From a virus (Duplodnaviria > Heunggongvirae > Uroviricota > Caudoviricetes): a stretch of DNA of 64,000 nt. Every line of letters starts with the position of its first letter. Within the stretch, counting starts at the first letter, position 1. Where the stretch lies: the IMG/VR virus record IMGVR_UViG_3300025121_000033, one strand, 5' to 3'. The translations under genes were made by a program, and so were the position numbers. The notes under the pieces were generated by a model, which saw nothing but the letters and a program-made list of their open reading frames with translations, was not told the origin of the DNA and made no database searches. Positions 11,738 through 47,000 of this stretch are shown piece by piece.

Positions 11738-11995
11738 ATGAAACCTTCTCTCCAAAAACAAATAGACAATCTTAAAAAAGATATCAAAGCGATGAAAATT
11801 GAAATCGCTGTTCTACAAGCATTGGCCACTGGCGGTGCGAAGAGTAATGTTATTTATGCTTTACCAACTCCTTTTCATCCGACGGTAACCGGAAACCAAG
11901 GCGGTCAAGTAGCAGTTATAAGCACTCGCCCTCGTCGCCTTGACACGAGTATCTACGGCTCCGCAGGTGGAAACGGGGTAAACACTAAAGTATGA
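11738..11995 (+). CDS. Hypothetical protein (85 aa).
   Basis: ORF. Confidence 0.4.
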   Translation: MKPSLQKQIDNLKKDIKAMKIEIAVLQALATGGAKSNVIYALPTPFHPTVTGNQGGQVAVISTRPRRLDTSIYGSAGGNGVNTKV

Positions 11996-18351: not shown

Positions 18352-18840
18352 ATGATTTTCTGCGGAATAGATCCTGGTTTGTCCGGGGCCATCGCGATGA
18401 TTACTGAGAGTAACGAAATTGTTGGCAAATTTAAGATGCCTACTATTAAGAACGTCAAAGGCAAGAACGAAATTGATTTAACTGAGGTTGTAAAGATTTT
18501 TCAAAATTACGAAATAATGTTCGCCATATTGGAAAGAGTCCACGCCATGCCGAAAAACGGCGCTGTCTCCATGTTCACGTTCGGGCGTAGTTTCGGGATG
18601 ATAGAAGGTGTTATCGCAGCGCTTAAGATCCCTTACGCGCTTGTGAGCCCACAGACTTGGCAGAAAGAGATTTTAAAAGACTTTAACAGAGACGACGATA
18701 GTAAACAAAGCAGTATCCTCCATGCAAAAAGGATGTTCCCTAAGGATGATTTTAGACCAACAGAGAGAGCGAAGGTGGACGACAGTAATATCACTGACGC
18801 TGTGAACATTGCTTTATACGCTAAACTAAAATTTAATTAA
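18352..18840 (+). CDS. RuvC-family Holliday-junction resolvase.
   Basis: N-terminal CGIDPGLSGAIAM and the general RuvC fold signature. Confidence 0.6.
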   Translation: MIFCGIDPGLSGAIAMITESNEIVGKFKMPTIKNVKGKNEIDLTEVVKIFQNYEIMFAILERVHAMPKNGAVSMFTFGRSFGMIEGVIAALKIPYALVSPQTWQKEILKDFNRDDDSKQSSILHAKRMFPKDDFRPTERAKVDDSNITDAVNIALYAKLKFN

Positions 18841-18921
18841 TATTTAAGGGAAGTTATAAGCAAGTTACTTCTTGGATGAAAAACACTTACTTAATTTTTC
18901 TCCCTTTTTAAAATAAAACAT

Positions 18922-20385
18922 ATGAAATTTCGATCGGGGAAATCAGTCGGTCAAAAAACTGTCAACTTAGCAGGCGGAGAAGCATTCAAGCAATCTCCTG
19001 AACTTGAATTGGTGTCTCTGCTTTTGACTTCGTTTGTAAAAGATAAATTTTACGAATCAGGCAATGACCAATTAGACAGATTGGCGTTGATCGTTAATAA
19101 ATTAGCTGATAAGAAATTCGCCGGTCAAGCCGCGATTTATGCGCGTAACGAATTTGGCATGCGCAGTATCACCCACGCTTTGATTGGCGAGATTGTCCAT
19201 ATTGTTAAAGGCCAAGAGTGGGTGAAGAACGCGGTAACGCGCACTGTGAAGCGCCCCGATGATATGCTTGAGATGTTGGGCTACTTTGGCTCAAAACATT
19301 CTGATAGTGCCATTCCGAATTCTTTAAAGAAAGGGCTGCGTTTGGCGGTAGGCAAATTCGATGCTTACCAGCTGACTAAATACAAAAGCTCCAGATCGGA
19401 TGTAAAAATGGTAGACTTGTTTAACCTCGTCCACCCTAAACCGGTGGATAGTAGGGCTGCTGATGTTTATTCCAAATTAATTAATGGCGAATTAAAAAAC
19501 ACTGAGACTTGGGAAGCTAAACTTTCCAGTGCCGGCCAAGAAGTAAAAGAAATGGCCGATGGTGCTGATAAGGAAGAGAAGCTGTCTGAGTTAAAAGAGA
19601 GTGCATGGCAAGAATTGTTAGAGAGTAAAAAGTTGGGCTACTTCGCTTTATTGCGCAACTTGCGCAATATCAGTCAGCAAGCGCCTAAACTTATTCCGCT
19701 TGCGATTGAGCAACTCCTTAACAAAGAAGCCATTCAGAAATCCCTGGTAATGCCTTTCCGCTTCCAAACGGCTTACAAAGAACTGGATGAGGCCGGTGTA
19801 AGTCGAAAGTTATTGGATGCGCTAAACGATGCGACCGAACTGTCACTCTCTAATGTGCCGAAATTCGCTGGTAAGACTTTGATAGTCCTCGACACCAGCG
19901 GTTCGATGCAGGGCGATCCGTTAGACATTGGTTCATTATTTGGCGCGGTGTTGTTTAAAGCAAACGCTGACGCAGATTTAATGACGTTTGATGACGACGC
20001 TCGGTATGAGAAAGGCATCAGCGGTAAAGATTCGCTCTTGACGATCGCTGAGAAGTTGCGCAAACACGACGGTGGCTCAACCAACTTCCACGATATATTC
20101 ATTAAGGCTAAAGAGAAGTATGATCGGATCGTGATTCTGTCTGATATGCAAGGGTGGAGCGGTGGCTACGACAACCCTACTGGAGATTTGCAAACTTATA
20201 ATAAAAAGTTTGGTGCCGATCCGTTCATTTATTCGTTTGATTTAGAAGGACACGGTACGCTCCAATTCCCTGAGAATAAGATTTTCTGTATTGCTGGTTG
20301 GTCTGATAAAATCTTAGGGGTAATGGCGCTTCTGGAAGAAGACAAAAACGCGTTAGTCAATAAAATAAAAGCAATAGTACTTTAA
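18922..20385 (+). CDS. rsr: Ro60 orthologue (Rsr): TROVE domain plus C-terminal vWA domain.
   Basis: ALLRNL, PFRFQTAYKEL, MIDAS motif LIVLDTSGSMQG, GGSTNF and IVILSDMQGWSGG align with human Ro60 ALLRNLGKM, HPFHILIALETY, LLAVDVSASMNQ, GGTDCS and IVFTDNETFAGG. Confidence 0.8.
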   Translation: MKFRSGKSVGQKTVNLAGGEAFKQSPELELVSLLLTSFVKDKFYESGNDQLDRLALIVNKLADKKFAGQAAIYARNEFGMRSITHALIGEIVHIVKGQEWVKNAVTRTVKRPDDMLEMLGYFGSKHSDSAIPNSLKKGLRLAVGKFDAYQLTKYKSSRSDVKMVDLFNLVHPKPVDSRAADVYSKLINGELKNTETWEAKLSSAGQEVKEMADGADKEEKLSELKESAWQELLESKKLGYFALLRNLRNISQQAPKLIPLAIEQLLNKEAIQKSLVMPFRFQTAYKELDEAGVSRKLLDALNDATELSLSNVPKFAGKTLIVLDTSGSMQGDPLDIGSLFGAVLFKANADADLMTFDDDARYEKGISGKDSLLTIAEKLRKHDGGSTNFHDIFIKAKEKYDRIVILSDMQGWSGGYDNPTGDLQTYNKKFGADPFIYSFDLEGHGTLQFPENKIFCIAGWSDKILGVMALLEEDKNALVNKIKAIVL

Positions 20386-20388
20386 AAT

Positions 20389-20630
20389 TTACGGAGGCAG
20401 CTAAGCCAGGATTTCCTCGAATTACTTTCATAAAGTTATTCTAACGCTTCGGCGTAAGAACTCTTATTGTTCTATGGTAGGTATCAAAAGACCCCGATCG
20501 ATTGATATCTCCTTACCGGAAAGTCGCCCGAAAGGGTGACCGACCAAAGTGAAGCGTGCAGAGCAATCTGTATCGCTTCGAGCACAGGTAGCGCGATAGC
20601 TCCAGTCCTGACTGCCTTTCTCCTCCGTAA
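20389..20630 (+). ncRNA. Structured non-coding RNA domain closed by a 9-bp terminal helix (20389-20397 / 20622-30). It contains C(UUCG)G and GNRA hairpins and is a candidate Y-RNA-like module.
   Basis: No ORF. ttacggagg pairs with cctccgtaa. Hairpins at 20444-20455 (acgc-UUCG-gcgt) and 20523-20540 (gtcgccc-GAAA-gggtgac). Confidence 0.3.
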
Positions 20631-20641
20631 AAATCGATTTT

Positions 20642-20767
20642 CTGGGTAGCGATAGAAAAGTTACTTCGACTTATAATCGAGTGGTCGCTTGTTCGAGTCA
20701 AGCCGGCGCCTTCGGGAGCCGTAGCTCAGTTGGTAGAGCACTTTTACTTTTCTAGATTTTCTCCCAG
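20642..20767 (+). ncRNA. YrlA-like candidate Y RNA. A permuted tRNA-like module (T-arm 20687-20703; acceptor-like stem closed by a UUCG loop 20704-20721; D-arm 20722-20739) sits on a long stem (20642-61 / 20746-67).
   Basis: GGAGCCG-UA-GCUC-AGUUGGUA-GAGC is a canonical tRNA 5' half. GCTTG-TTCGAGT-CAAGC is a canonical T-arm and lies immediately upstream. There is no anticodon arm. The position is right next to rsr. Confidence 0.45.
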
Positions 20768-20781
20768 TTTAAAAATAAATT

Positions 20782-21168
20782 ATGTTTAGACGAATTAAAT
20801 ATTTTATCCAGAGAGGGCGGCGCGGATATAGCGACGAAGATCTTTGGGATTTCGACAGTTATTTATCTAGTATGATTGCTCCGGCGCTTAGGCATCTCGC
20901 GAAGAAGTCATTCGGGTGCCCAAGCGACTTATATGATAAAGATAAGAAAAATGATGAGTGCCATCGGTGGAAGGAGATATTAGAAGAAATGGCACAAGGA
21001 TTTGACGCCGTGCGTTCGTTAAAAGGGACAGGTATATTACATTATGAGAAGCAGGATAATGGCGCTTTAAAGATTACGGTAGATGAGAATCGCCAAAAAA
21101 ACTTGTCTGATAAATTTAATAAAGGGATGCAGTTATTTAGCCAATATTTTTTAGGACTTTGGGACTAA
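20782..21168 (+). CDS. Hypothetical protein (128 aa).
   Basis: ORF. Confidence 0.5.
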   Translation: MFRRIKYFIQRGRRGYSDEDLWDFDSYLSSMIAPALRHLAKKSFGCPSDLYDKDKKNDECHRWKEILEEMAQGFDAVRSLKGTGILHYEKQDNGALKITVDENRQKNLSDKFNKGMQLFSQYFLGLWD

Positions 21169-22623: not shown

Positions 22624-22660
22624 ATATGGGGCGCGAGTAATTTCCGCCCCATATTTTAAA
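22624..22660 (+). terminator. Rho-independent terminator: 10-bp stem atatggggcg / cgccccatat, then a T-run.
   Basis: Perfect inverted repeat followed by ttttaaaaaa. Confidence 0.7.
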
Positions 22661-27916: not shown

Positions 27917-30900
27917 TTATATCGGATTCGCTTCGTAATAAGGCTTGGCAACTTCTGGAGTATCGTTAAAGATGAATGAAAGTCGGACCTGAAAGGAAGT
28001 ATGAGAGTCTTCGTATCCACCCCAATTAGAAAGATTACTCTTCTTGGCGGTTAGAAGCCAAACAGCTATCGTCCTTTTCTGCTCTTCTGTCATATTTGGC
28101 GCGACACTGTAGTAATAGTCAGTCACTTCGTCTTTTACTCCATCTTTAATCTTTTTTATGGCCGCTTTATTATCCTGCTTGACAGACATTATTTCTTTAG
28201 ATCCTTCATCTTTTTTCTTAGAGAAGAAAGACAAATAGTCTTTTACGACTGGATCGCTTATCGGCGCACGTTGAATATTATTATCAGCGAAATATTTTTT
28301 TACATTATTCACTCTCGCGTCGTGGGTAAACTGTTGTTCCTTAGCTGATAAGCGCTCTGGAAATTCTGGTAAATTAGATACAAGTTTTGCAATAACATCA
28401 ACAGGGCCCGGTTTCTGTCGTTTTGAACCGATATTCTTCCAATACACGGCGAACGCGTTCTTCATTTCATTGTACCTGTCTTGGCTGAATCCTTTACTAC
28501 TATCAGCGTAGTCATAAATAGCCTGCCGTTCAGAAAGGCTATCAAAGAAGTTTTTAGCTGCTATATTATGCGGCACTCCTTTAGGTGCATCAAAAAATTT
28601 ATTTCTCAATAAATCAGACAACTTACTGACACCACCATTGGATAGTTCCTTATCAAGATTGGATTTCTTTACAGCGTCAGTGGAAGCATTGCTCATGTAT
28701 TCGGTAAAGGCGTATAGTTTTTGGTTACGCTGCTCCAGCGTTTCTCCCTGCGCTGGCTTTTTCAATTTCCATCCGCCGATGCTTTCGTCGTTGTCCATAA
28801 TGCCTTGTATCACGCGCCTGAAAGTAGAATTCTCTCCGACAGATTGGCCGCCTTTTACTGCTTTCTCTGCTAAATCCATACTATTTTCGAACGTAATTGG
28901 GCCTTTCTCATAGTTAGTAAGAGTGGGTGCTTCTTTTCCTCCTTCTCTTTCGAATATGCCTTTCAACTTATTGGCGTATTCTTCTGGGATTTTGAAGTTG
29001 CCCCCTTCGGATTTACCAACAGCGAAAAGCGGACCAGCGTCTCCATCAGTATCAAAATAAAATTCTCGGTACCCAACTTTATTGTTGACGATCATGCTCT
29101 CTCCCAGATCGGTGATGCCACGCTCTTCAGCTGATATTACTTTAAAAGGCAGTAGGCCTGTCCTTTTTGTGTTAGGATGTCGCGTCGCCAACACAACTTC
29201 CGGGTTACCAAGCTTTTCAATTGTTTTGTTGGAAAGCATAATAGAATCCTCTGGCACTTCCGCCCATTTACCGTTAGGAGATTTGATAACACCAAAGTCT
29301 GGGTAGAATTTACCGTAGTGCGCCTTTAAGAATTGCCCGTTTAGCACATAATCACGCAGCGAATTATGAAGTGCTAATTCTAATTCGTAGCGGATATCAC
29401 TTCCGTTCTTTCCCCAACCACCATTCTCTAAGATTTTTTTAGTTTTGCCATACATGTTCTCCCCTAACGCAGTCTTAAAGATATCCTGATATTCGCTCAG
29501 AACCGCGCGCGCTTCTTTAGCAGTTTTAGAACCATACACAAGTTCGGTAAACGCCTTTTTAAATCGTTCGACTGGTTGAGAGTACATCTCCTCTACAACT
29601 TTATTTAGTCCGTCGGCGTAACCAAACTTACTATTAAGATATGGGGAGAATTTATAATCTTGATCCGGCATCTTTGGGAGTTCATATTTAGCGCGAAAAG
29701 CAGACATCGGGAATTCCCCGACGTAGTAGTTTGGTTTGCCTTCGCCAAAGTTCTCTAGTATCTTTGTGCTGATTTTTACGTTGTTATGTGACGTAATATA
29801 GTCGCCTGGTTGAAATTTATAATTTGGGATATACTGTCTTACGTATTCTTCTATCCGCTCTGCGGTCGCGCTGTCTGGCTTGACGCCGAATAATTCATTT
29901 TTTATAATGTTTGGTTTGCCGTCTTCGCCTTTAAACGTTATTACATTTTTATTAGTCAAGTACTCCTCTGGTTTATGGAGGTACCCGCCTTCTTTGTTAA
30001 TTCGGATCATGTCATCGGTGTGCACAAAGGAAGCGCCATCAACTATCTCATGTTTGTTGGCGTCTTTGCCAAAGTTAATGACGATTAATCTTTTTTTAAC
30101 GTTACTATCGTTGATCGGTTTAAATTCTGCGAAGTTGAACTCCTTCCAGCGCTTGTTCAACACTGCTTTGTCGTCAGTTTTGCTTAAATTAAGTACATTA
30201 CTGATAATAAAATCAAAGAATTTATCTGTTCCTTCTTTAATATTCTTGCTACCGCCGATAATAGGGTCGTACTTAATTCCGAATAAAGTATCAGCAGAAT
30301 TGCCGGTAGCCCCAAATGGGACATATCCAGCTTCATATAATTTATTTTTTAAATCCGATATGCTCATTTTTTTACGCATCTTACTATCAACTTGAACCTT
30401 CATCACATCTAAATCAGTCCCGCGCTCTTTGTTGAATTGTGCTAACGATTCGTCTATAAAACTAGCCGGTTGAGGAGTGCGCTCGATCACGGAAGTTTTT
30501 GTAGGTGTGACCAGTATCGCTTTATCCGGAACGCTTTGAGCGGTTCTCTTAAATAGCGATTTCAGAGCAGCTTTAGACTTTCGCCCAGTGATTGGCGTGT
30601 CTATGCCTAATTTTTGGTAGTTTGACTCTACGCTATTAATAAATTCATTAAACGCGTGGTCTTCGTTGCCATTGTATTTGTTAACCAGTTCTTTTGATTT
30701 AACATACATCTCTTCTGCCGACAGAGATTTTTTAATACCTTCCGCTACCTTTATTTGTTCTGGGGTGGCCTTAACTTCTGACAGTTTTTTATCGATATCG
30801 TCGCTTAAACCCTTAATTACTCCTTTCTCGTCAAAGCGTCTGAAATCTCGGATGTTAACTTTTTCTGTTGCCGGAGCTGGCTGCGGATTTTTCATTGCCA

Positions 30901-33900
30901 GTTCTACTTTCGGTTCAGCGGTAGAGAACAGATCAAGTTGTTTTGTGTCGTAGAATTTGTTTTCTGTTGCTGGCGCGGTAACCTTAGGAGCGGTTTGAGG
31001 AGTAGTCTGCGTAGGGCGTGAGGCCAATAGCGTCTTCATTTCTTCAACAACAGCTTCTTTCGGTTTGGCTTGTGGCGCAATTTGAGGTGATTGCTGCACG
31101 GTCTCTTGCTTAGGTGCTATGGTCACGCTCGGTTTAACAGCCGACTTAGTCGGAGTAGTAAATGTCTTAACAGCGTTATTCGCTGCGTCAGACACACGTT
31201 GAGTTTTTTCTTCGGCGCTTACATTAATTATTTTGTCGCGCACCGGCTTACCTGGGTTAATAGTGTTTTCAGTTTTATTATAAATTGAAGAAAGCATGTC
31301 CATTTGGCCAGCAGCTTTTTTCTCTTTCATCATCTGCCTTACTTCCCTGGTCAAATCTTTCTCCGTCACCGGTTTATAAGATAGCACTCTTGATTCAGGT
31401 TTTTTTATTTCTGGCAAAGAAAGTTCTAACTGTTTGGCTTGCCGTATCGCTTTCATCGTATCTAAAATACGGTCTACCGTGATCGCTTCTTTGCTCGAAA
31501 TTCCAATATTGCGCAACACAGATTGAGCGTCCATGTTATTGCCGAGCGTGTCTGTGCCCATCTTAATAACTATAGCTGGTAGACCCGACTCCACGTTCTT
31601 GGCTTCAGCGAATGAAATCTGCACTATTCTAGCGCTGATCCCATTCTGTTTCATACTATCGTAAATAGTGTCTTTATTAACATCCGAATCGTACAATTCA
31701 GCTGGTAAATTTCTTTTCGCAGCTACACTAAGTTGTTTTTGGTTCATCTGCTCAGCGATATTCGTTTTACTCGGAGCATACCCAAGATTTAAAAATTCTC
31801 CATTTTTATACGCGACAAGAGCAAGATGCTTTTCAGCACTTTCTCCTGCCAGTTTCCCGGCCTGTTTTACGGCATATGTAATTTCTGGGTTATCAACCAA
31901 AAATCCGTACTGAGGGTTGTTAGGATCATAAACAAAGTCAGAAGCAAATTTGATCTGGTTGTCTTTAATGATTCCGTCTTTACCCTGTGATGTAATTTGC
32001 AAATAAGACGGGCGCACTGTGTTGCCCTCAGCATTAATATAATTATCTTTTGCGCCAACAAATTTCTTTTCAGAAGCATTTTTAAACGCGACTGGATCTG
32101 ACTCAGCTGTTATTAAAGGCATTTTTCTTTCTCCAATATCAAATAAATCCTTGTTGCCTTCGATAAATCTAACGCCAGCGTCAGGTACAAGTTTAATGCG
32201 GTGCGTCGGTAAATCAATGCCATTGTCTTTATTAAGTTGCTCCCAGTTAACTTTTGATTCAGCATCTAAAGCAATTACCCTGTCAATTTTAGGGGATGTA
32301 TTCGCAACGGCAATATTTTCCAACCACCGAGAACCGGCAATTAGCTTGCCAATTTCTTGGTTCATTTTTACCTCATCAATTTCGCCATTGTGGTATGCTT
32401 TAATTATTTCTGATTGCGCACGTACATTATCGTTCATTAAATCGCTGCCGTATTTCATTCTTTGCTCTAAGGCAGACCCAATCGGAGGGGGCTCAGTAGC
32501 TCTTATTTTAGCTCTGCCTAACCACAAATTGCGCTGCCCAAGAACAGAATCGGTCGCTATCTTTTCTGCGTCTGTGGCGATACTTCCCTTAGCTTGAGTA
32601 GCGACACCGACTCCATGAAGGCCGCCCATAATAGCACCGGATAAAAGAGCATTATCAACATCTCCTGAATTGATATACTCTATCATCATACCGGCGAACG
32701 CGGCACCGAATGCGCCTTTTACGCTCATAGGAAGGCCAGAGAGAGACAAGGCCATGGAAGTGTCAGTAAATACACGTCTTGCGCGGGACCCCTCTTCGTC
32801 TTGTTTACTTAACTGCCCGACAGTATTAAAAATTAAAGCATTTTTCGCTGCAGTCTTGCCATATCCCTTTAGCCCTGGCGCAAGCATTTTTGCTATTATC
32901 GGAACAGCTGTAGAAGTTCCTTTCGGCTGAACGTATTTAGCAGCGAGCGCCGGCTTAGATTCATACTCCATGATCTTGGCTAATTTTGTAGCGCCGGAAG
33001 TAACAAGCGGAATTTTCCTTGCTGAGGCGACATACTTAAAGCCATTCAGTAGTAATCCTTCTACGGCTTTAAATGACGCAATTGCGCCTGCGACATGGCC
33101 AGTGACATTCGCGACGCTATTGGCTGTTTTTTCCCATTGTGCCTCCACTGTCCCTGGTTTAGGAGCGGCAGCCGGTAAATCAAAATAGCCGAATGTCATT
33201 CCGCTTAACACACCTTTTGTAAACGCCGAAGTCATCGGAGGCATTATGATATCCAAACTCTTAGCGGCATCGGCTTTAAACGATGTCCACGTCTTTTTAA
33301 AGGCTTCAGGGATACCGGTTATGGCGTCTTTTATGCCGGTTGGTGTTACTGTTTCCCACTTCTTTTTATACTCTTCAGCAATCTTAGTTGGCAAAATAAT
33401 TTGTTCATTACCAAATTTGTCTTTTATGGTTTCTTTTTGGTCTAAGTTTACACCGGCGACGTCTTTGTCTTGCCAGTTAAGCGAGAGAGCCGTGGCTTCA
33501 TTTTTACTGATTTTACCGGCGGTATATAACGCGCGCGCGACTTCGCCTACTTTAGTTTTTTTATCGTGGTCAAAAATATTTAGGACTTGTTTATTTTCCA
33601 ACGTATCTGATCCTTCTAACCAGATTGGGTAAATATGGTCTACTTGATATAGGGATGATGATCTACCGCCCAAGAGAATATTTTTTTCGATCTGCTGCTC
33701 TGGAGTTTCAAAGCGCCTTTCTGATTTTAAATACGCGCTTGGATTTGTTGGGTCATAAGCATACTGGCCCCCGCCGACAAACTTGCTTAAAGTGGCAAAT
33801 TTAGCAGATACTGGCTGCTGCTTAACATAATTTGGATCAAAAGTATACCCAGGATAGTTTTCTTGGATATTTAAACTCGGAACAGATTTTTCAAATTGCA

Positions 33901-34069
33901 CGCCAGCTACAGTTTTTTCCGGTAGAGCCGCGGGAATATTCTTGAATTTGCTAACATCTATCGGCTTAGCGCTTTTTAAATATGTGCCTGGGGCTTTTAG
34001 CACTTGCGCTGCTCTCTGCCCAACCGTTGCTTGATTGTAACTTGTGTTAAGCGGCAGTTGATTGGCCAT
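27917..34069 (-). CDS. Giant (2050 aa) putative virion-associated single-chain RNA-polymerase-like protein. It has a beta-prime-type DPBB catalytic loop (DxDGD) and an N-terminal HNH-like motif.
   Basis: TRHPNTKRTGLLPFKV...(24 aa)...FYFDTDGDAGPLFAV aligns with E. coli beta-prime NRQPTLHRLGIQAFEPV...NADFDGDQMAVH. A possible beta-like K...NK segment (INFGKDANKHEIV...TDDM) lies about 350 aa upstream. An HNH-like DHIYP...ENKQ motif sits near residue 150. It is the last gene of the structural operon. Confidence 0.45.
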   Translation of the reverse strand: MANQLPLNTSYNQATVGQRAAQVLKAPGTYLKSAKPIDVSKFKNIPAALPEKTVAGVQFEKSVPSLNIQENYPGYTFDPNYVKQQPVSAKFATLSKFVGGGQYAYDPTNPSAYLKSERRFETPEQQIEKNILLGGRSSSLYQVDHIYPIWLEGSDTLENKQVLNIFDHDKKTKVGEVARALYTAGKISKNEATALSLNWQDKDVAGVNLDQKETIKDKFGNEQIILPTKIAEEYKKKWETVTPTGIKDAITGIPEAFKKTWTSFKADAAKSLDIIMPPMTSAFTKGVLSGMTFGYFDLPAAAPKPGTVEAQWEKTANSVANVTGHVAGAIASFKAVEGLLLNGFKYVASARKIPLVTSGATKLAKIMEYESKPALAAKYVQPKGTSTAVPIIAKMLAPGLKGYGKTAAKNALIFNTVGQLSKQDEEGSRARRVFTDTSMALSLSGLPMSVKGAFGAAFAGMMIEYINSGDVDNALLSGAIMGGLHGVGVATQAKGSIATDAEKIATDSVLGQRNLWLGRAKIRATEPPPIGSALEQRMKYGSDLMNDNVRAQSEIIKAYHNGEIDEVKMNQEIGKLIAGSRWLENIAVANTSPKIDRVIALDAESKVNWEQLNKDNGIDLPTHRIKLVPDAGVRFIEGNKDLFDIGERKMPLITAESDPVAFKNASEKKFVGAKDNYINAEGNTVRPSYLQITSQGKDGIIKDNQIKFASDFVYDPNNPQYGFLVDNPEITYAVKQAGKLAGESAEKHLALVAYKNGEFLNLGYAPSKTNIAEQMNQKQLSVAAKRNLPAELYDSDVNKDTIYDSMKQNGISARIVQISFAEAKNVESGLPAIVIKMGTDTLGNNMDAQSVLRNIGISSKEAITVDRILDTMKAIRQAKQLELSLPEIKKPESRVLSYKPVTEKDLTREVRQMMKEKKAAGQMDMLSSIYNKTENTINPGKPVRDKIINVSAEEKTQRVSDAANNAVKTFTTPTKSAVKPSVTIAPKQETVQQSPQIAPQAKPKEAVVEEMKTLLASRPTQTTPQTAPKVTAPATENKFYDTKQLDLFSTAEPKVELAMKNPQPAPATEKVNIRDFRRFDEKGVIKGLSDDIDKKLSEVKATPEQIKVAEGIKKSLSAEEMYVKSKELVNKYNGNEDHAFNEFINSVESNYQKLGIDTPITGRKSKAALKSLFKRTAQSVPDKAILVTPTKTSVIERTPQPASFIDESLAQFNKERGTDLDVMKVQVDSKMRKKMSISDLKNKLYEAGYVPFGATGNSADTLFGIKYDPIIGGSKNIKEGTDKFFDFIISNVLNLSKTDDKAVLNKRWKEFNFAEFKPINDSNVKKRLIVINFGKDANKHEIVDGASFVHTDDMIRINKEGGYLHKPEEYLTNKNVITFKGEDGKPNIIKNELFGVKPDSATAERIEEYVRQYIPNYKFQPGDYITSHNNVKISTKILENFGEGKPNYYVGEFPMSAFRAKYELPKMPDQDYKFSPYLNSKFGYADGLNKVVEEMYSQPVERFKKAFTELVYGSKTAKEARAVLSEYQDIFKTALGENMYGKTKKILENGGWGKNGSDIRYELELALHNSLRDYVLNGQFLKAHYGKFYPDFGVIKSPNGKWAEVPEDSIMLSNKTIEKLGNPEVVLATRHPNTKRTGLLPFKVISAEERGITDLGESMIVNNKVGYREFYFDTDGDAGPLFAVGKSEGGNFKIPEEYANKLKGIFEREGGKEAPTLTNYEKGPITFENSMDLAEKAVKGGQSVGENSTFRRVIQGIMDNDESIGGWKLKKPAQGETLEQRNQKLYAFTEYMSNASTDAVKKSNLDKELSNGGVSKLSDLLRNKFFDAPKGVPHNIAAKNFFDSLSERQAIYDYADSSKGFSQDRYNEMKNAFAVYWKNIGSKRQKPGPVDVIAKLVSNLPEFPERLSAKEQQFTHDARVNNVKKYFADNNIQRAPISDPVVKDYLSFFSKKKDEGSKEIMSVKQDNKAAIKKIKDGVKDEVTDYYYSVAPNMTEEQKRTIAVWLLTAKKSNLSNWGGYEDSHTSFQVRLSFIFNDTPEVAKPYYEANPI

Positions 34070-41023: not shown

Positions 41024-44000
41024 TTATACGACTAATTCGATTGCTTTGCCAGCGTTGCCAGCATTAGCAGCGCTACCGTTATTACCTGGTGAACCATTTG
41101 CAGATATTAAACCGATGCCCCCCGCACCACCAGTCCCAGTTGTGCCAGCGGCACCGCCTGAAGCGGTAATTGTGCCAGAGCCACTCTTTGTAGAATAAAC
41201 AACTATGGTAACACCGCCAGCGCCTCCGCCTCCAGCGCCCCCTCCGCCGCCACCACCGCCTCCATAACCTGAAGCGTGGCTGGGGTGCCCATCACCTCCA
41301 TCGCCGCCATCGCCGCCATTACCACCTGCGCCACCGTCTGCAGAAATAGCTCCGTTATTGACAATTGTTTTAGCGAATACTATGACAATACCACCTGTTG
41401 AGCCAGAACCACCACCACCGCCACCGCCACCGCCAAAACCTTCAACAGAAGACAATCTCCCAACACCTCCACCCGCACCGCCCCCACTTCCTGAACCAGC
41501 TGATGAACGAATAGAATCAGCAGATGGTAAATCATCCGCCATTCTCATCGCATGTTGCGAATTGCGCGGTGTGTTATAAACAGTGCCTGATTTAGCCCCT
41601 CCACCGCCGCCGCTTCCGCCAGATTGTGTCCCCGAACCTGGGTTACCTGATGCTCCACCTGTTCCGCCATTTGAACCATCAGCCCCGTTCGCAGCGAATC
41701 CTTTAACGCTGCCATCGCCTGCGGTCCCTGGGTCGCCTGGGTCACTACCTGTCCCTCTACCGTTTTTACCAGCTCCGCCGGTCTTACCATCTTCTCCGCC
41801 TGAAATTGATCCGCTTGTTTTTGCTGCCCCGCCTGAACCACCAGCGCCACCAGCGCCGTGGCTCGATCCTGTGTAATCATCACCATCGCCCCCGGCAGTG
41901 CCGGCAGTGCCCGCAAGCCCATCTCTGTGCACTTTATAAGTGCTATTAATTGTTAAAATACCCTTAACGAATAATCTGTATCCGCCACAATCTAAGCTAC
42001 CGCCTGATAAAGTTAAATCATCAAAGTAAGCATCTCGTGTTAAAATATTTGAAGTGATTGGGCCAGAAGAAAATGAACCTGAATTTATATCAACATCACC
42101 GTCTGAGCCATCACCGAATTGGTTTTGGTTGCTTAACGCAGATCCATTAATCGTCGCAGACTGAGCGACTAAATCGCCAGCGGCAGTCACATAAAACAAA
42201 GCTCCTGTTCCGGCATTATCGGTAGCACCCGCGAAGAACGATTTTGTTGTCCCAGTCCCTTGGATTGAGCCAGAAAAAGCAGAACCTGAACCACCGTACC
42301 ATTTACCAGAAGCAATCGTCCAGCCAGAACCAGCGCCGCCGATATAACCTGTGTCAGCTGTTACTGTGCCGGTGATGGTTGCGCTTGACGCAGTTAAAGC
42401 GCCAGCTTCAGTAACTCTAAATTCTGCACTGCCCGGCGTTGCATCTCCTGCCCAAAAACGAATATCGTCTCCGCCTGTGACTGCAGAAGAGAGGCCGACT
42501 ACTCCTGCCGCGTCCTTAATGGCATCCGAAGTGACCACCCAACCGCCGATTGCGCCAGAAGTAGCAGTTATCGCCCCTGTTATTGTAGCAGAAGTTGCTG
42601 TAAGTGCGCCAGACTCCGTGACTCTAAACTCAGCGCTTCCTGGCGTAGCGTCTCCTGCCCAGAAGCGAATATCATCGCCTCCGGTTACAGCTGAAGATAA
42701 TCCGACTACCCCGGCAGCGTCCTTAATTGCGTCTGAAGTAACAACCCATCCGCCGATTGCGCCAGATGTAGCAGTTATTGCTCCGGTGATGGTTGCGCTT
42801 GTAGCAGTCAATGCACCAGCTTCAGTGACTCTAAATTCAGCGCTTCCTGGCGTAGCATCTCCCGCCCAGAAGCGAATGTCATCGCCTCCAGTTACAGCGG
42901 ATGATAAACCGACTACTCCGGCAGCGTCAGTAATTGAAGTAGAATTTATTGTCCACCCTCCGATTGTCCCAGAGGTCGCTGTTATTGACCCTGTGATAGT
43001 CGCGCTTGTAGCGGTAAGGGCCCCCGCGTGAGATACTCTAAATTCGGCAGAACCTGGGGTATCGTTGCCTGCCCAAAAAGCGTAAGTAGCATCTCCGGTA
43101 GTAGTTGCTAACCCAATTCCAGTAGAAGTAATCTTGCCAGCTGCGATAACCCAGCCACTTGTGCCACCGATATAGCCAGTATTAGCAACAATTACGCCTT
43201 TTAAGTAGGCATTATCAGTATATAAACCCCAAACATCTGTCGAACTTAAACCAACGTCAGCGTCAACGATACCTTGTAGCCATCCGAATCTGCCGTGGAT
43301 TGTGTAATCACTATAAGTATTTGAGTTACGACCGTAAATATCAATATAAGGGCTGCTGGCAGAAGAGCTGTCAAGTAAGACAAAGCCTGTCTTCGTCCCA
43401 GTGCCCACGCCCATTGATACTACAGCAGTGCCTGTCGTCCAGACAGGGTTATTATCAGCAGTATACGAACCAGCCAAGTCGCGAGTTACGACATAAGTCG
43501 GAGCACCTGATGCGTCAGTTACTAGCATCCATTCGTCGTCTGTGCCGTCTTTTATTCTAATAACTTCATTGTTTACAAATGTTGTTTCGCCTGTTATGAC
43601 GACATTTGACGCGTCTAAAGCAGTCATATCAGAATCAAGCACATCAGCTTTTGAAACTAACACAATACCATTGACAGCAGAAATTGTGTCTTTTTCGAAA
43701 ACAGATGTTCTAATAGTGCCGCGCACAGTAACGTTTTGAAATTCGGCCTCGCCAGTACTCATTATGCGCCAGCCAGAACCCAATGGGCCAGAAACAAATG
43801 AACTAGAGCTAATAAAGTTAGACCCCAAAGTGTTTCCTCCGATTGTACCTGAAGTCGCCGAGATGACTCCAGCTTCTGTGACACGGAATGGAGCAGATCC
43901 TGGCGTTACGTGCCCAGCCCAGAATCTGATATCATCTCCACCAGTCACAGCCGAAGATAAACCAAAAGTAGCGGCAGTATCTGTTATGGTTGTCGCGTTA

Positions 44001-47000
44001 ATTGTAAATCCACCGATAGCGCCAGAAGTAGCAGTGATCGCGCCAGAGATAGAAACTCCTGTAGCGGATAAAGCCCCAGCATGGGTTACGCTAAATTCAG
44101 CAGATGCGGGTGTGTCATTGCCTGCCCAGAAAGCATAAGTGGCGTCTCCAGCGGAGGTCGCTACTCCGATCCCAGTGGAAGTAATTTTACCTGTAGCGAT
44201 TACCCAGCCAGTTACTCCACCAATATACCCTGTATTCGCTGTTATAACACCAGTGATTGTCGCTGACGAAGCAGTCAATGCACCAGCTTCAGTGACTCTA
44301 AATTCCGCGCTTCCTGGTGTAGCGTCTCCAGCCCAAAATCTAATATCATCGCCTCCAGTTACAGCTGAAGATAATCCGACTACTCCGGCAGCGTCTTGAA
44401 TATAATCAGCTCCAATTACCCACCCACCAATAGTACCGGTCGTGGCTGTGATACTGCCTGTGATTGTGGCTGAAGTCGCGACTAATGCGCCTGCTTCGGT
44501 AACACGGAAAGGCGCTGATGCTGGTGTAGCATTACCAGCAAAAAAGCGGATATCATCGCCTCCGGTTACAGTCGATAACATGCCGACTACCCCAGCCGCG
44601 TCTTTAATTGAATCAGCGCCGATAGCCCAGCCGCCAATAGTCGCAGTCCCAGCGCCGATACTGCCAGCTGTGATCGTGCCTAAATCAGCGGTGATGGCTG
44701 ATAGTTGAGAAACACTAAGTAACCCAGCTGTGATGGAATTTGCGACGATAGAATCAGTGCCAAGCAAAAATGTTCCTCCGATACCTCCGAATACTTGGAA
44801 AGTGGCAGCCGCTGCGCCATTAATTGCTGTCGCAACGATTATCTTACCAGTACCAACAGCGGTAGTCGCGGTCGTTGTTACTTGAAAAGCTATAGTAGAT
44901 ACTGCGATATCTAAGTAAATGTAAGTGCGTGCGACCATGTTGCCCGTGTTACCGGCTCCAATACTATAAGATGTGCCGCCAGTTACAGTCAAAGTACCTG
45001 CTCCCCAAGAAACAGTATCAGCATCAGTAGAAGAAAATGCGCAAGTTAAATTCCATCCTTGGTTGGCAATATTTAAGTTTGTTTGTGCGACAGTGCCGCT
45101 TAAGTAGTCTGTCGCTATAACTGAGCCGACTGCCGCAGTTAAAGCGCCGGTTATAGTTGCGGTTGAGGCGGTCAATGCGCCAGCTTCTGTTACTCTAAAT
45201 GGTGCTGACGCCGGTGTCGCGTTCCCCGCGAAAAAGCGTATGTCATCACCGCCAGTAACAGTCGAGAGCATGCCCACAACCCCGGCTGCGTCCTTAATAG
45301 CGTCTGATGTCACCACCCAACCTCCGATCGCTCCTGTGGTAGCCGTTATAGCGCCTGTGATAGTCGCGCTTGTGGCGACTAAAGCACCAGCTTCAGTAAC
45401 GCGGAAGGGGGCACTCCCAGGTGTAGCATTTCCAGCAAAAAATCTAATATCGTCACCGCCTGTTACTGTTGAGAGCATCCCTACTACGCCCGCCGCGTCT
45501 TTGATAGCGTCAGACGTCACGACCCAGCCACCAATAGCGCCAGAAGTAGCAGTGATAGCACCTGTAATAGTTGCTGAAGTCGCGACAATCGCGCCTGATT
45601 CATATACTCTGAACTCAGCGCTCGCAGGTGTTGCGTCACCCGCCCAAAAGCGAATATCGTCTCCACCTGTTACAACAGCTGAAAGTCCGACTGTTCCGGC
45701 TGCGTCTTTTAAATACCCGGCAGATATTACCCAACCTGAAGTACCGCCGATGTAACCAGTATTAGCGACGATTACACCCTTGATGTAAGCGTTATCAGTG
45801 TATAAGCCCCAGACATCAGTAGATGATAATCCAACGTCGCTATCAACAATACCTTGAAGCCAGCCAAAGCGTCCATGAATAGTATAATCAGAATAAGTAT
45901 TGGAATTTCTGCCATAGATATCGATATATGGCGAAGAAGCGCTTGAACTGTCAAGAAGGACAAACCCAGTTTTAGTCCCTGTGCCTACGCCCATAGATAC
46001 TACAGCCGTCCCTATCTTCCACACCGGGTTATTATTTGCTGTGTAAGTCGCTGCTAAATCGCGAGTCACGACATAAGTAGGCGCGCCAGAAGCATCAGTG
46101 ACCAACATCCATTCGTCATCAGTCCCGTCTTTAATGCGGATTACTTCATTATTAACAAAAGTAGTCTCACCTGTAATAGTAACTGTCGAAGCGTCAAGCG
46201 CCGTCATGTCAGCGTCAAGCACATCAGCTTTTGAAACCAAAACTATACCATTCACCGCTGAGATAGTATCTTTTTCAAAAACAGATGTTCTGATTACGCC
46301 GCGCACCGTTACATTCTGAAATTCAGCTTCACCCGTGCTCATTAATCTCCACCCCGTACCAAGTGGCCCGGACACGAACGAACTTGAACTGATAAAGTTA
46401 GTGCCAAGAGTGTTTCCACCAATTGTACCGCTTGTTGCTTTGATAACACCAGCTTCAGTGACATAGAACGGCGCAGAAGCAGGTGTCGCGTTGCCAGCCC
46501 AAAAGCGAATATCATCGCCCCCTGTTACAGCTGAAGATAATCCGACTACAGCAGCAGTGTCAGTAATACTAGTCGCGTTTATCGTCCAACCTCCGATTGT
46601 ACCGGACGTGGATGTGATAGACCCTGTAATTGTAGCTGAGCTGGCGACAAGAGCGCCTGATTCAGTAACATAGAACGGCGCTGATGCTGGTGTTGCGTGG
46701 CCGGCCCAGAAGCGAATGTCATCGCCTCCAGTTACAGCAGCGGATAAGCCAACCACACCTGCAGCGTCTTTAATATAATTCGTAGAAACTACCCATCCTG
46801 TTGCCCCTCCAAGGTATCCGGAATTCGCCGTAATCACACCAGTCACTGTCGCAGAAGTAAATGAAGCTGCGCCGGTGTTAAGAACATAAGCAGGAGCAGT
46901 CGCATATCCGGTTGCTTCATTTGTCCCCCACCACGTATTACCGGTAGTATCAACGTGCATTGAATTAGCGGTGGTTGTATCAGGTATGTCTAATTTACCG

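What the first reader, a model, noticed from the sequence alone, without database searches (positions are those of the whole stretch)
18922..20781. Phage-encoded Ro60/Rsr next to a 396-nt non-coding region containing a permuted tRNA-like, YrlA-like candidate Y RNA
The 487-aa ORF is a clear Ro60 orthologue, with a TROVE domain (ALLRNL, PFRFQTAYKEL) and a vWA domain with MIDAS motif DTSGSM. Directly after it there is no ORF for 396 nt. Within 20687-20741 lies GCTTG-TTCGAGT-CAAGC (a T-arm), then a 7-bp acceptor-like helix CGGCGCC / GGAGCCG whose ends are joined by a UUCG tetraloop, then UA-GCUC-AGUUGGUA-GAGC (a perfect D-arm). This is a tRNA without an anticodon arm, circularly closed. The module sits on a long stem (20642-61 / 20746-67), and a second, larger domain (20389-20630) is closed by a 9-bp terminal helix. 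A tRNA-mimicking Y RNA adjacent to rsr is the hallmark of bacterial YrlA. tRNA-scan tools would report only a truncated tRNA here.
Basis: partly seen in the sequence, partly recalled or inferred. Interest (0 to 1): 0.75.

Follow-up and report, generated by a model that had tools for sequence, protein, structure and literature searches.

The report
Phage Ro60 with three Y RNAs
A phage gene for the ring-shaped RNA-binding protein Ro60 is flanked by three structured non-coding RNAs of the Y-RNA type (a 63-nt hairpin, a 236-nt multi-hairpin RNA and a 128-nt tRNA mimic); the Ro60/Y-RNA pairing is already known in phages, and only the long RNA lies outside what has been described.

Summary
Window 18922-20385 encodes a Ro60/Rsr orthologue. 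The 396-nt gap after it has no credible ORF and folds far better than shuffles.

- **20641-20768: a YrlA-type Y RNA.** It matches Rfam YrlA (43.2 bits, E 2.4e-8, below the gathering score of 69). Over 100 relatives lie beside Ro60 genes, all on the Ro60 strand. In a 30-sequence alignment, 29 of 35 pairs show compensatory changes, and tRNA tertiary covariation is kept (15:48, U8:A14).
- **20389-20630: a separate RNA, not a second domain.** It is a 236-244-nt unit (z = -6.5) whose closing bulged stem resembles the core shared by the neighbouring Y RNAs. Its roughly 190-nt module has no homologue in about 330 Ro60 loci, so calling it a long Y-like RNA rests on architecture and position only.
This 63-nt mini-Y lies just upstream of rsr. 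A covariance model built without the window scores it 68.3 bits (E 1e-15).

Phage Ro60 with adjacent Y RNAs is established (Chen 2014; Thermus phage phiLo 2025). This is therefore a new, divergent member of a known kind. The novel part is a possible class of long Y-like RNAs.

The parts
18845..18907 (+). Mini-Y RNA, a 63-nt hairpin just upstream of the rsr start codon. Basal helix 18846-18850/18902-18906, bulged A18851, AG 18852-53 paired with CU 18900-01. Upper helix 18857-18865/18885-18893. Loop begins with GUUACUUC and ends with GAAAAACAC.
   Evidence: Covariance model R1 was built from 16 homologues without the window. It hits 18841-18915 at 68.3 bits, E 1.1e-15; the next best hit in the 64 kb scores 11.7 bits. 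In a 17-sequence alignment, 16 of 18 pairs show compensatory changes. The homologues lie directly upstream of Ro60 on the same strand.
18922..20385 (+). rsr, the Ro60 orthologue (487 aa). It has a TROVE/HEAT-repeat ring and a vWA domain with the MIDAS motif DTSGS.
   Evidence: Pfam TROVE E 1.6e-17. phiLo phage Ro60 (PDB 9L5Y/9KOP) E 2.2e-29 over residues 10-478; D. radiodurans Rsr E 6e-6. 4377 homologues at E<=1e-30, the nearest different sequence being 60-64% identical.
20389..20630 (+). Long Y-like RNA (descriptor core 20392-20627, 236 nt). Closing helix 20389-20400/20620-20630, with bulged C20398 and AG/CU. Second helix 20403-20413/20604-20617. 5' junction motif AUUUCCUC. 3' motif CUUUCUCC. 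The enclosed module spans roughly 20414-20603.
   Evidence: z = -6.48 on the + strand against -3.48 on the - strand, and MFE and centroid nearly coincide. It is one of only three + strand matches in the window to a Y-core descriptor. That descriptor gives 264 hits on the Ro60 strand against 17 on the opposite strand in 890 kb of Ro60 loci. It holds the same position (Ro60, long unit, YrlA) as long units in L006, L084 and L154. There is no sequence or CM homologue of the module.
20419..20603 (+). Module of the long unit, predicted as seven hairpins: 20419-20441; 20444-20455 (UUCG loop); 20457-20473; 20476-20512; 20523-20540 (GAAA loop); 20550-20580 (GCAA loop); 20587-20603.
   Evidence: Thermodynamic prediction only. 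It has no Rfam match at E<=10. No homologues exist, so no covariation test was possible.
20641..20768 (+). YrlA-type Y RNA (128 nt): a Ro60-binding-type stem carrying a circularly closed tRNA-like module.
   Evidence: Rfam RF02553 YrlA, 43.2 bits (gathering 69), E 2.4e-8, full model 1-114. nhmmer finds relatives in Ro60 loci, all on the Ro60 strand. On alignment A2, 93.7% of cells are paired, 29 of 35 pairs are compensatory, and 0 of 500 shuffles reach that.
20642..20664 (+). 5' strand of the Y stem of the YrlA-type RNA. CUGGG (20642-46), bulged U20647, AGCGA (20648-52), upper helix about 20653-20660, then UUAC (20661-64), which is the conserved YUAY of YrlA. Its partner is 20747-20767 (upper helix strand, AUUUUCU, CCCAG).
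   Evidence: Helices 1-3 of A2 all show compensatory changes. YUAY and the 5' motif are described for YrlA in PMC4201824.
20667..20679 (+). V hairpin: 3 bp (C20667-G20679, G20668-C20678, A20669-U20677) with the 7-nt loop CUUAUAA. ARAGORN reads this as the anticodon arm of a tRNA-Ile(UAU).
   Evidence: Two of the three pairs covary, with 100% paired. The loop is 7 nt with the pattern N-U-NNN-A-A in most of 30 homologues. ARAGORN result.
20680..20686 (+). A20680-G20681 pair with C20741-U20742, forming a 2-bp anticodon-stem-like helix. UGGUC (20682-86) is the variable-loop equivalent.
   Evidence: Columns 46-47/117-118 of A2 are 100% paired, with compensatory changes in 7 and 3 sequences. This beats the alternative of extending the V hairpin. 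The 15:48-like pair reads G:C in 20 and A:U in 6 sequences; the 26:44-like pair reads G.A in 13 and A.U in 8.
20687..20703 (+). T arm: GCUUG-UUCGAGU-CAAGC.
   Evidence: Helix 7 of A2 is 100% paired and 4 of 5 pairs are compensatory. The T loop is UUCGANU in most homologues.
20704..20721 (+). Acceptor-like stem closed by a UUCG loop: CGGCGCC-UUCG-GGAGCCG, with one G.A mismatch.
   Evidence: Helix 8 of A2 has 6 of 6 pairs compensatory and 97.7% paired. Loop length varies among homologues.
20722..20740 (+). U8-A9 equivalents (20722-23), D arm GCUC-AGUUGGUA-GAGC (20724-39), and the position-26 equivalent A20740.
   Evidence: The D stem is invariant in 30 of 30 sequences. U8:A14 equivalents are present in 30 of 30, and GG is in the D loop in 20 of 30.

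Best explanation
This is a phage rsr (Ro60) module with three Y-type non-coding RNAs on the same strand:
- a 63-nt mini-Y just upstream of rsr;
- a 236-nt long Y-like RNA directly after rsr;
- a 128-nt YrlA-type tRNA mimic.

**What the computations show**
- All three begin and end in the same kind of closing stem. A 5-7-bp helix is interrupted by one bulged base, followed by an AG/CU step, an AGYNA / U-rich internal loop and a second helix. A YUAY-CUUC-type junction follows.
- They differ in what the stem carries: nothing, a roughly 190-nt multi-hairpin module, or a closed tRNA-like module.
- The mini-Y and the YrlA-type RNA belong to conserved, covarying RNA families tied to Ro60 genes.

**What is inferred**
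- The closing bulged stem is the Ro60-binding site. This is by analogy with the Xenopus Ro60-Y RNA structure and the EMSA results for phage phiLo Yrl1/Yrl2.
- The RNAs are made from the rsr transcript or from their own promoters and accumulate as Ro60 RNPs.
- Each module tethers the Ro60 ring to a different partner. The tRNA-like module would address tRNA-binding enzymes. As in Deinococcus, Salmonella and phiLo, the host exoribonuclease PNPase is a likely partner. The phage would thereby redirect degradation or quality control of structured RNA during infection.
For: - **Ro60 identity:**
- **YrlA-type RNA:** Rfam YrlA at E 2.4e-8. nhmmer relatives all lie on the Ro60 strand in viral/metagenomic loci, and 44 of 44 do so in bacterial MAG loci. 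27 of 32 pairs and 29 of 35 pairs are compensatory, with 0 of 500 shuffles reaching that. tRNA tertiary covariation 15:48 and invariant U8:A14 are kept.
- **Mini-Y:** 68.3 bits, E 1.1e-15, from a model that excluded the window. 16 of 18 pairs are compensatory.
- **Long unit:** z = -6.48 with strand asymmetry. It matches the Y-core descriptor, which gives 264 hits against 17 on the control strand. That descriptor gives exactly three + strand hits in the 64-kb window, all flanking rsr. Its CM's best hit elsewhere is a Y-core next to Ro60 in L117 (E 0.039). Long units hold the same position in L006, L084 and L154.
- **Link to Ro60 rather than neighbours:** 249 of 263 units lie within 700 nt of Ro60. 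The window's flanking genes have no homologue in those loci.
- **Precedent:** YrlA in 22 phages, and two or more Y RNAs per species (PMC4201824). Phage phiLo Ro60 binds two adjacent Yrl RNAs and forms ternary complexes with host PNPase (PMC12135203).
Against: - There is no expression, end-mapping or binding data for this phage.
- The YrlA-type RNA scores below Rfam's gathering score (43.2 against 69).
- It lacks an exact GNCGAAN0-1G motif. It has AGCGAUAG; the clade consensus is UAGYGA.
- The long unit has no homologue apart from an identical 1.9-kb contig, so there is no covariation for it.
- The long unit's core motifs are divergent (AGCUA, AUUUCCUC). Sequence-only half-core HMMs that find the other two units do not find it.
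- Promoter-like sites are not above shuffle expectation and no intrinsic terminator is predicted.
- The partner of any module is unknown.
Confidence: 0.75

Rival explanations
1. Only the mini-Y and the YrlA-type RNA are Y RNAs. The 20389-20630 element is an unrelated structured RNA that merely sits between rsr and YrlA. It could be a processing or stability element of the rsr transcript, or a distinct ncRNA with its own function.
For: It has no homologue and no covariation. The half-core HMMs do not detect it. Its core motifs deviate from the clade consensus (output).
Against: Its closing stem has the same layout as the two validated neighbours: bulge, AG/CU, U-rich 3' strand ending UUUCUCC, then a second helix. 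The chance rate of the descriptor is about 2e-5 per nt (17 hits in 890 kb), so about 0.005 hits are expected in this 250-nt slot. The variant AUUUCAUC junction occurs in bona fide YrlA homologues L065 and L082. The AGYUA variant is shared with the window's own mini-Y. Long units with canonical cores hold the same slot in L006, L084 and L154.
Confidence: 0.2
2. The 396-nt region is just the structured 5' UTR, acting as a cis-regulatory leader, of the downstream gene 20782-21168.
For: No terminator is predicted between the RNAs and gene 20782. The gene starts 14 nt after the last stem.
Against: Gene 20782 (phrog_11543, unknown function) has no homologue in any of 168 Ro60 loci, whereas the RNA families recur there. 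They lie mostly upstream of Ro60 and next to unrelated genes. The Rfam match is to a trans-acting sRNA family.
Confidence: 0.03
3. 20644-20713 is a real, or decaying, tRNA-Ile(UAU) gene, as ARAGORN calls it.
For: ARAGORN call. Rfam tRNA model 19.3 bits, E 0.25. A homologous element is deposited as tRNA-Thr in Xanthomonas phage 10KY502B.
Against: The tRNA score is below threshold (19.3 against 29). It needs mismatched acceptor pairs and has no proper D arm in that register (alignment). The real D arm lies 3' of the T arm. Covariation supports the permuted, closed architecture across 30 homologues. The 'anticodon' triplet is not conserved. The 10KY502B 'tRNA-Thr' overlaps a YrlA match of 46.7 bits.
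Confidence: 0.02

Closest known systems
YrlA (Rfam RF02553; Chen et al. 2014, PMC4201824; structure in Wang et al. 2018, bioRxiv 10.1101/312249)
   Same: It is encoded beside Ro60 on the same strand. The 5' and 3' ends form a long stem with a purine-rich 5' motif. YUAY is present, followed by a V hairpin, T arm, closed acceptor-like stem-loop, UA, D arm and a short anticodon-stem-like helix. tRNA tertiary pairs are conserved (15:48 covaries). The family is already reported in 22 phages.
   Different: It scores 43.2 bits against the gathering score of 69. The exact GNCGAAN0-1G motif is replaced by UAGYGA. The V hairpin is constant in this clade, with a 7-nt loop of pattern N-U-NNN-A-A. Stacked on the 2-bp helix, it looks like a complete anticodon arm, whereas Salmonella YrlA is described as lacking an anticodon loop.
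Second Y RNAs of bacteria (S. Typhimurium and M. smegmatis YrlB, D. radiodurans Yrn2)
   Same: They are additional Ro60-bound RNAs encoded next to YrlA/Yrn1. They are simple long hairpins with a small loop and share the 5' Ro60-binding-type motif. The window's mini-Y has this form.
   Different: No sequence homology was tested or expected. In the literature YrlB was found only in Salmonella serovars. The mini-Y here belongs to its own conserved family with a GUUACUUC...GAAAAACAC loop.
Thermus phage phiLo Ro60 with Yrl1/Yrl2 (PMC12135203; PDB 9KOP, 9L5Y)
   Same: A phage-encoded Ro60 is the best PDB match to the window protein (E 2.2e-29). Two Y-like RNAs lie in the adjacent non-coding region. 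Binding and ternary complexes with host PNPase were shown experimentally.
   Different: The phiLo RNAs lie upstream only. They were picked by a CGAA motif and are simple stem-bulge-stem RNAs. No tRNA-like or long multi-hairpin module was reported. Protein identity to the window Ro60 is low (about 25%).
D. radiodurans Rsr-Yrn1-PNPase (RYPER) machine
   Same: This is the model for how such an RNP works. The Y RNA stem binds the Ro60 ring and the module tethers an exoribonuclease.
   Different: No PNPase-binding element can be recognised in the window RNAs. No PNPase gene was identified among the ORFs examined in the window, so any partner would most likely be host-encoded.
Canonical and circularly permuted tRNA genes
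   Same: T arm, D arm, acceptor-like helix, variable-loop-like linker and elbow-forming nucleotides are all present.
   Different: The acceptor end is closed by a loop, so there is no free CCA end. The 5' and 3' ends exit through the anticodon-stem side into a Ro60-type stem. The 'anticodon' is not conserved.

Membership tests
Ro60/Rsr (TROVE + vWA ring protein) | TROVE (HEAT-repeat ring) domain | tested here: met
   Pfam PF05731 E 1.6e-17, 64.2 bits against a cut-off of 23. Full-length alignment to the solved phage Ro60 9L5Y/9KOP, E 2.2e-29.
Ro60/Rsr (TROVE + vWA ring protein) | C-terminal vWA domain with MIDAS DxSxS | tested here: met
   DTSGS at residues 324-328. D324, S326 and S328 are invariant in 50 homologues. 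Pfam vWA_Ro60 is below cut-off (21 against 27.7 bits), but the region aligns with the phiLo and D. radiodurans Rsr vWA domains.
YrlA (RF02553) | Score at or above Rfam's curated gathering threshold (69 bits) | tested here: not met
   43.2 bits, E 2.4e-8 for the 551-nt search; nothing at gathering threshold. Relatives also score below it: 36.9-55.9 bits.
YrlA (RF02553) | Encoded within 4 kb of a Ro60 orthologue on the same strand (criterion of Chen et al. 2014) | tested here: met
   It starts 256 nt after the rsr stop codon, on the + strand.
YrlA (RF02553) | Conserved T and D stem-loops separated by a closed acceptor-like stem-loop, in the order T-AS-D | tested here: met
   20687-20703, 20704-20721 and 20724-20739. 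The T and AS helices covary, and the D stem is invariant.
YrlA (RF02553) | 5' and 3' ends pair into a long stem | tested here: met
   Helices 1-3 of A2 have 15 of 15 pairs with compensatory changes.
YrlA (RF02553) | GNCGAAN0-1G motif near the 5' end (putative Rsr contact) | tested here: not met
   There is no exact match. The window has GUAGCGAUAG and the clade consensus is UAGYGA. A related purine-rich motif sits at the same place next to the bulged helix. I therefore call the RNA YrlA-like (a divergent subfamily), not a strict member.
YrlA (RF02553) | tRNA-type tertiary pairs (Levitt 15:48 covariation, U8:A14, elbow G18G19/T loop) | tested here: met
   15:48 reads G:C in 20 and A:U in 6 of 30. 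U8:A14 is present in 30 of 30. GG is in the D loop in 20 of 30. The T loop is UUCGANU.
YrlA (RF02553) | Bound by Ro60/Rsr in vivo; carries tRNA modifications | not testable with these tools
   Needs immunoprecipitation and modification mapping.
Y RNA in the broad sense (applied to the long unit 20389-20630) | Closing stem with a bulged helix and conserved 5'-strand motif, next to Ro60 | tested here: inconclusive
   It matches the structural descriptor, and its CM finds a Y-core in L117 at E 0.039. However, the sequence-only core HMMs miss it and there are no homologues for covariation.
Y RNA in the broad sense (applied to the long unit 20389-20630) | Size 80-130 nt ('all characterized Y RNAs', PMC4201824) | tested here: not met
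   236-244 nt.
tRNA (RF00005) | Cloverleaf in the canonical order with free acceptor ends, scoring above threshold | tested here: not met
   19.3 bits against a gathering score of 29, with mismatched acceptor pairs. The ARAGORN call is explained by the V hairpin and T arm of the YrlA-like RNA.

The most novel reading that the evidence does not exclude
Phage and bacterial Ro60 genes of this clade carry cassettes of up to five or more Y-like RNAs. These share one Ro60-binding core but have interchangeable modules: none, tRNA-like, T-arm only, or large multi-hairpin domains. The window's 236-nt unit would belong to an undescribed class of long Y RNAs (170-300 nt). At least 37 distinct examples lack T and D arms, several sub-families are unrelated to one another, and one sub-family is conserved in huge phages. 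Each would address the Ro60 ring to a different, still unknown partner or substrate.
Probability: 0.5. Interest if true: 0.6.

Novelty: new member of a known kind. Interest (0 to 1): 0.4.

Why it matters
- **Annotation.** Standard annotation misses this clade of YrlA-like RNAs. They score below the Rfam threshold or get called tRNAs: ARAGORN calls tRNA-Ile here, and a homologous element is deposited as tRNA-Thr in Xanthomonas phage 10KY502B.
- **An experimental entry point.** The locus offers three RNAs with the same putative Ro60-binding core but three different modules, next to one Ro60 gene. That is a compact system for asking what Y RNA modules do and why phages carry Ro60.
- **A possible size extension.** If the long units bind Ro60, they would extend Y RNAs well beyond the 80-130 nt described so far and point to new effectors.
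- **Origin of YrlA.** The anticodon-arm-like V hairpin followed by a 5-nt variable-loop-like linker fits the proposal that YrlA arose from a dimeric tRNA precursor.

Tried and rejected
- **Rfam at gathering threshold on the whole window:** nothing found.
- **Rfam at E<=10 for the long unit, and E<=1 for long units in relatives:** no family matched.
- **nhmmer with the long unit against 163 Ro60 loci, then 5 more, then 80 genome loci:** the only hit was the identical contig L168, which has one SNP.
- **Single-sequence covariance model R2 of the long unit over 860 kb of Ro60 loci:** no module homologue. The best hit matches only the core.
- **blastn of the gap against 50,697 phage genomes:** only the tRNA-like part matched, in Xanthomonas and Xylella phages.
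- **MAFFT alignment of the long unit with the L164 and L167 long units:** no convincing homology.
- **Exact-pattern scan GGATTTCMTCGAATT in viral contigs:** the pattern was too short. It gave 120 or more random matches, none with a Y-like context. That scan was wasted.
- **Sequence-only HMMs of the 5' and 3' halves of the Y core:** they rank the YrlA-type unit and the mini-Y first and second but miss the long unit.
- **Extending the V hairpin to 5-6 bp in cis:** rejected in favour of a 2-bp helix with the segment after the D arm, which covaries.
- **Descriptor hit on the - strand at about 11758-11816:** treated as a false positive because model R1 does not find it at E<=10.
- **Promoter and terminator scan:** uninformative.
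Full report
**1. The observation**

Window 18922-20385 (+) is a 487-aa ORF.
- It hits Pfam TROVE (E 1.6e-17) and, weakly, vWA_Ro60.
- It aligns over residues 10-478 with the solved Ro60 of Thermus phage phiLo (9L5Y/9KOP, E 2.2e-29). It aligns partly with D. radiodurans Rsr (2NVO, E 6e-6).
- It has 4377 homologues at E<=1e-30. The nearest different sequence is 60-64% identical.
- The MIDAS residues D324, S326 and S328 are invariant in the 50-sequence alignment.

The following 396 nt (20386-20781) hold only ORFs of 37 aa or fewer on the + strand.

The acceptor-like stem has one G.A mismatch.

The whole gap folds with z = -5.2.

The window looks like a phage. It encodes a UvsX-like recombinase, a RuvC-like resolvase, SbcCD, a primase-helicase and an endolysin-like protein. 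The best match in the phage collection is an uncultured 635-kb phage.

**2. The tRNA-like RNA (20641-20768)**

Rfam at gathering threshold finds nothing in the window. A sensitive search of 20300-20850 gives YrlA (RF02553) over its full length at 43.2 bits, E 2.4e-8. The 15-nt V hairpin appears as an insertion.

ARAGORN instead calls a tRNA-Ile(tat) at 20644-20713. The Rfam tRNA model gives only 19.3 bits.

I collected Ro60 loci from viral contigs, metagenomes and genomes.
- nhmmer with this RNA finds dozens of relatives. Every one is on the Ro60 strand, most lie just upstream of Ro60, and many are in two tandem copies.
- In 80 bacterial MAG loci there are 44 hits, and all 44 are on the Ro60 strand.

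A 30-sequence alignment gives a consensus fold in which 27 of 32 pairs have compensatory changes. For a completed structure, 93.7% of cells pair, 29 of 35 pairs are compensatory, and 0 of 500 shuffles or any slid register come near.

A 2-bp helix joins the bases just before the variable-loop-like UGGUC to the bases just after the D arm. It is 100% paired with compensatory changes. It beats the alternative of extending the V hairpin.

tRNA tertiary signatures are kept:
- 15:48 reads G:C in 20 sequences and A:U in 6.
- U8:A14 equivalents are present in 30 of 30.
- GG is in the D loop in 20 of 30.
- The T loop is UUCGANU.

All of this is the architecture that Chen et al. 2014 described for YrlA. 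That includes the YUAY motif (here UUAC) and the optional 'V' stem-loop upstream of the T arm. They reported it in 254 bacteria and 22 phages.

Two defining features are not met. The Rfam gathering score is not reached. The exact GNCGAAN0-1G motif is absent; the window has AGCGAUAG and the clade has UAGYGA. I therefore call it YrlA-like, a divergent subfamily.

One detail is worth noting. The V hairpin here has 3 bp and a 7-nt loop of pattern N-U-NNN-A-A. It is stacked on the 2-bp helix and followed by a 5-nt linker. It reads as a complete 5-bp anticodon arm plus variable loop, which explains the ARAGORN call. Salmonella YrlA is described as lacking an anticodon loop.

**3.

A descriptor of the shared closing stem hit a site between the upstream resolvase gene and the rsr start codon.

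nhmmer with this 75-nt stretch finds weak matches, all on the + strand and directly upstream of Ro60 in other loci. Aligned, 16 of 18 pairs are compensatory.

A covariance model built from 16 homologues without the window sequence scores the window site at 68.3 bits, E 1.1e-15. The next best hit in the 64 kb is 11.7 bits.

It is a simple hairpin. It has the same basal helix, bulge, AG/CU step, internal loop and upper helix as the YrlA-like RNA, capped by a loop GUUACUUC...GAAAAACAC. In form it corresponds to the 'second' bacterial Y RNAs YrlB and Yrn2.

**4. The larger region (20389-20630)**

On its own it folds with z = -6.48 on the + strand and -3.48 on the - strand. MFE and centroid nearly coincide.

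The predicted structure is a closing stem enclosing seven hairpins, three of them capped by UUCG, GAAA and GCAA loops.

The closing stem has the same layout as the two validated neighbours:
- CGGAGG, then bulged C, then AG.
- CUAA opposite CUUU.
- A second helix.
- AUUUCCUC at the 5' junction.
- The 3' strand ends CUUUCU-CCUCCG.

The descriptor gives 264 hits on the Ro60 strand and 17 on the opposite strand in 890 kb of loci. In the window it gives exactly three + strand hits: the three units around rsr. About 0.005 chance hits are expected in this 250-nt slot.

The variant junction AUUUCAUC occurs in bona fide YrlA homologues (L065, L082). The AGYUA variant is shared with the window's own mini-Y.

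Long units of 176-304 nt with canonical cores hold the same slot (Ro60, long unit, YrlA) in L006, L084 and L154. They also occur in L001, L164 and L167.

Across the loci I count, as distinct sequences:
- 81 units under 100 nt;
- 85 units of 100-169 nt, of which 45 have both T and D arms;
- 44 units of 170 nt or more, of which 37 have neither arm.

One long sub-family of 212-283 nt is conserved upstream of Ro60 in about 30 viral contigs, including huge phages.

The weaknesses are these:
- The window's module has no homologue anywhere I could search. That covers nhmmer, a single-sequence CM, blastn against phages, and Rfam. The only match is an identical 1.9-kb contig with one SNP.
- So there is no covariation.
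- Sequence-only HMMs of the half-cores miss it.
- The CM's best hit elsewhere (L117 2381-2471, E 0.039) aligns only the core.

I put the chance that this is a Ro60-binding Y-like RNA at about 0.65-0.7.

**5. Association and rivals**

Of 263 descriptor units, 229 lie upstream and 34 downstream of Ro60, and 249 lie within 700 nt of it. The window's flanking genes (the resolvase, and the 128-aa gene at 20782) have no homologue in any of the 168 loci. The RNAs therefore travel with Ro60, not with gene 20782. This removes the 5'-UTR reading.

A genuine tRNA is excluded by the permuted, closed and covarying architecture, and by the sub-threshold tRNA score.

No terminator is predicted, and promoter-like sites are not above expectation. 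The RNAs may be processed from a longer transcript, as reported for M. smegmatis. This is inference.

**6. Mechanism**

Shown here by computation: one Ro60 gene and three neighbouring RNAs with a common closing stem and different modules. Two of them belong to conserved, covarying, Ro60-linked families.

Inferred from established systems:
- The bulged stem binds the Ro60 ring. The basis is the Xenopus Ro60-Y RNA structure and the phiLo Ro60-Yrl1/Yrl2 EMSA and cryo-EM work.
- The modules tether Ro60 to partners. PNPase is the documented partner in Deinococcus, Salmonella and phiLo. tRNA-binding enzymes are the expected readers of the tRNA-like elbow.
- A role in reshaping host structured-RNA decay or RNA quality control during infection is plausible but untested.

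**7. Novelty and score**

Phage Ro60 with adjacent Y RNAs, tRNA-mimicking YrlA and several Y RNAs per locus are all published.
- The YrlA-like RNA and the mini-Y are new, divergent members of a known kind.
- The possible novelty is the long class, which is larger than the 80-130 nt given for all characterised Y RNAs. The cassette-like diversity of modules is also new. I found neither in Rfam 15 nor in the papers I could search.
- For the window's own long unit this rests on architecture and position only.

Interest: 0.4.

Noticed in passing
L369 (Xanthomonas phage 10KY502B, OQ622092.1) 1040-1600: Three sub-threshold Rfam YrlA matches (55.9, 46.7 and 25 bits) lie upstream of a Ro60-like gene annotated 'hypothetical protein'. 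One overlaps the deposited 'tRNA-Thr' feature. YrlA-like RNAs are therefore being annotated as tRNAs in phage genomes.
   Followed up: partly
L165 2658-3433 (also L166): The 776-nt gap after a Ro60 gene (64% identical to the window's) holds one YrlA-like RNA followed by at least four more tandem units. They share the same closing-stem motifs but have different inserts.
   Followed up: partly
L003 2587-2869 (LR745206.1, 635-kb uncultured phage) and about 30 other viral loci: A conserved 212-283-nt long Y-like family starts CAAACAUAGCGAUAGUUUGAGAUACUUCG and ends CGCUUAGGCUAAAUUUACUUGUUUG. It lies upstream of Ro60, has no Rfam match, and shows some compensatory pairs (8 of 36).
   Followed up: partly
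L164 1636-1939 and L167 3111-3359: Two clearly homologous long units (304 and 249 nt) lie next to Ro60 genes 63-64% identical to the window's. Visible compensatory changes occur in several small hairpins. They are not alignable with the window's long unit.
   Followed up: partly
L289-L368 (genome contigs): The same Ro60 clade (46-53% identity) occurs in MAGs of Bacteroidota (many Saprospiraceae), Verrucomicrobiota and others, some on contigs over 1 Mb. There are 44 YrlA-like hits, all on the Ro60 strand. The clade is therefore not phage-only.
   Followed up: partly
window 22624-22658 (+): A GC-rich hairpin (GGGGCG...CGCCCC) followed by AUAUUUUA lies just upstream of the SbcD-like gene at 22669. 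It looks like a terminator. It appeared only as a weak chance hit of the mini-Y model.
   Followed up: no
window 11758-11816 (-): This is the single descriptor hit on the opposite strand. The mini-Y covariance model does not support it, so it is probably a chance match.
   Followed up: partly
window 27917-34069 (-) and 41024-47809 (-): Two very large ORFs (2050 and 2261 aa) sit in a block of minus-strand genes. They are presumably structural or tail proteins and were not examined.
   Followed up: no
window 18803-18832 and 20339-20366 (+): Two weak sigma-70-like sites (9 of 12 matches) end about 10-20 nt before the mini-Y and before the long unit. The number of such sites in the region is not above shuffle expectation.
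   Followed up: no
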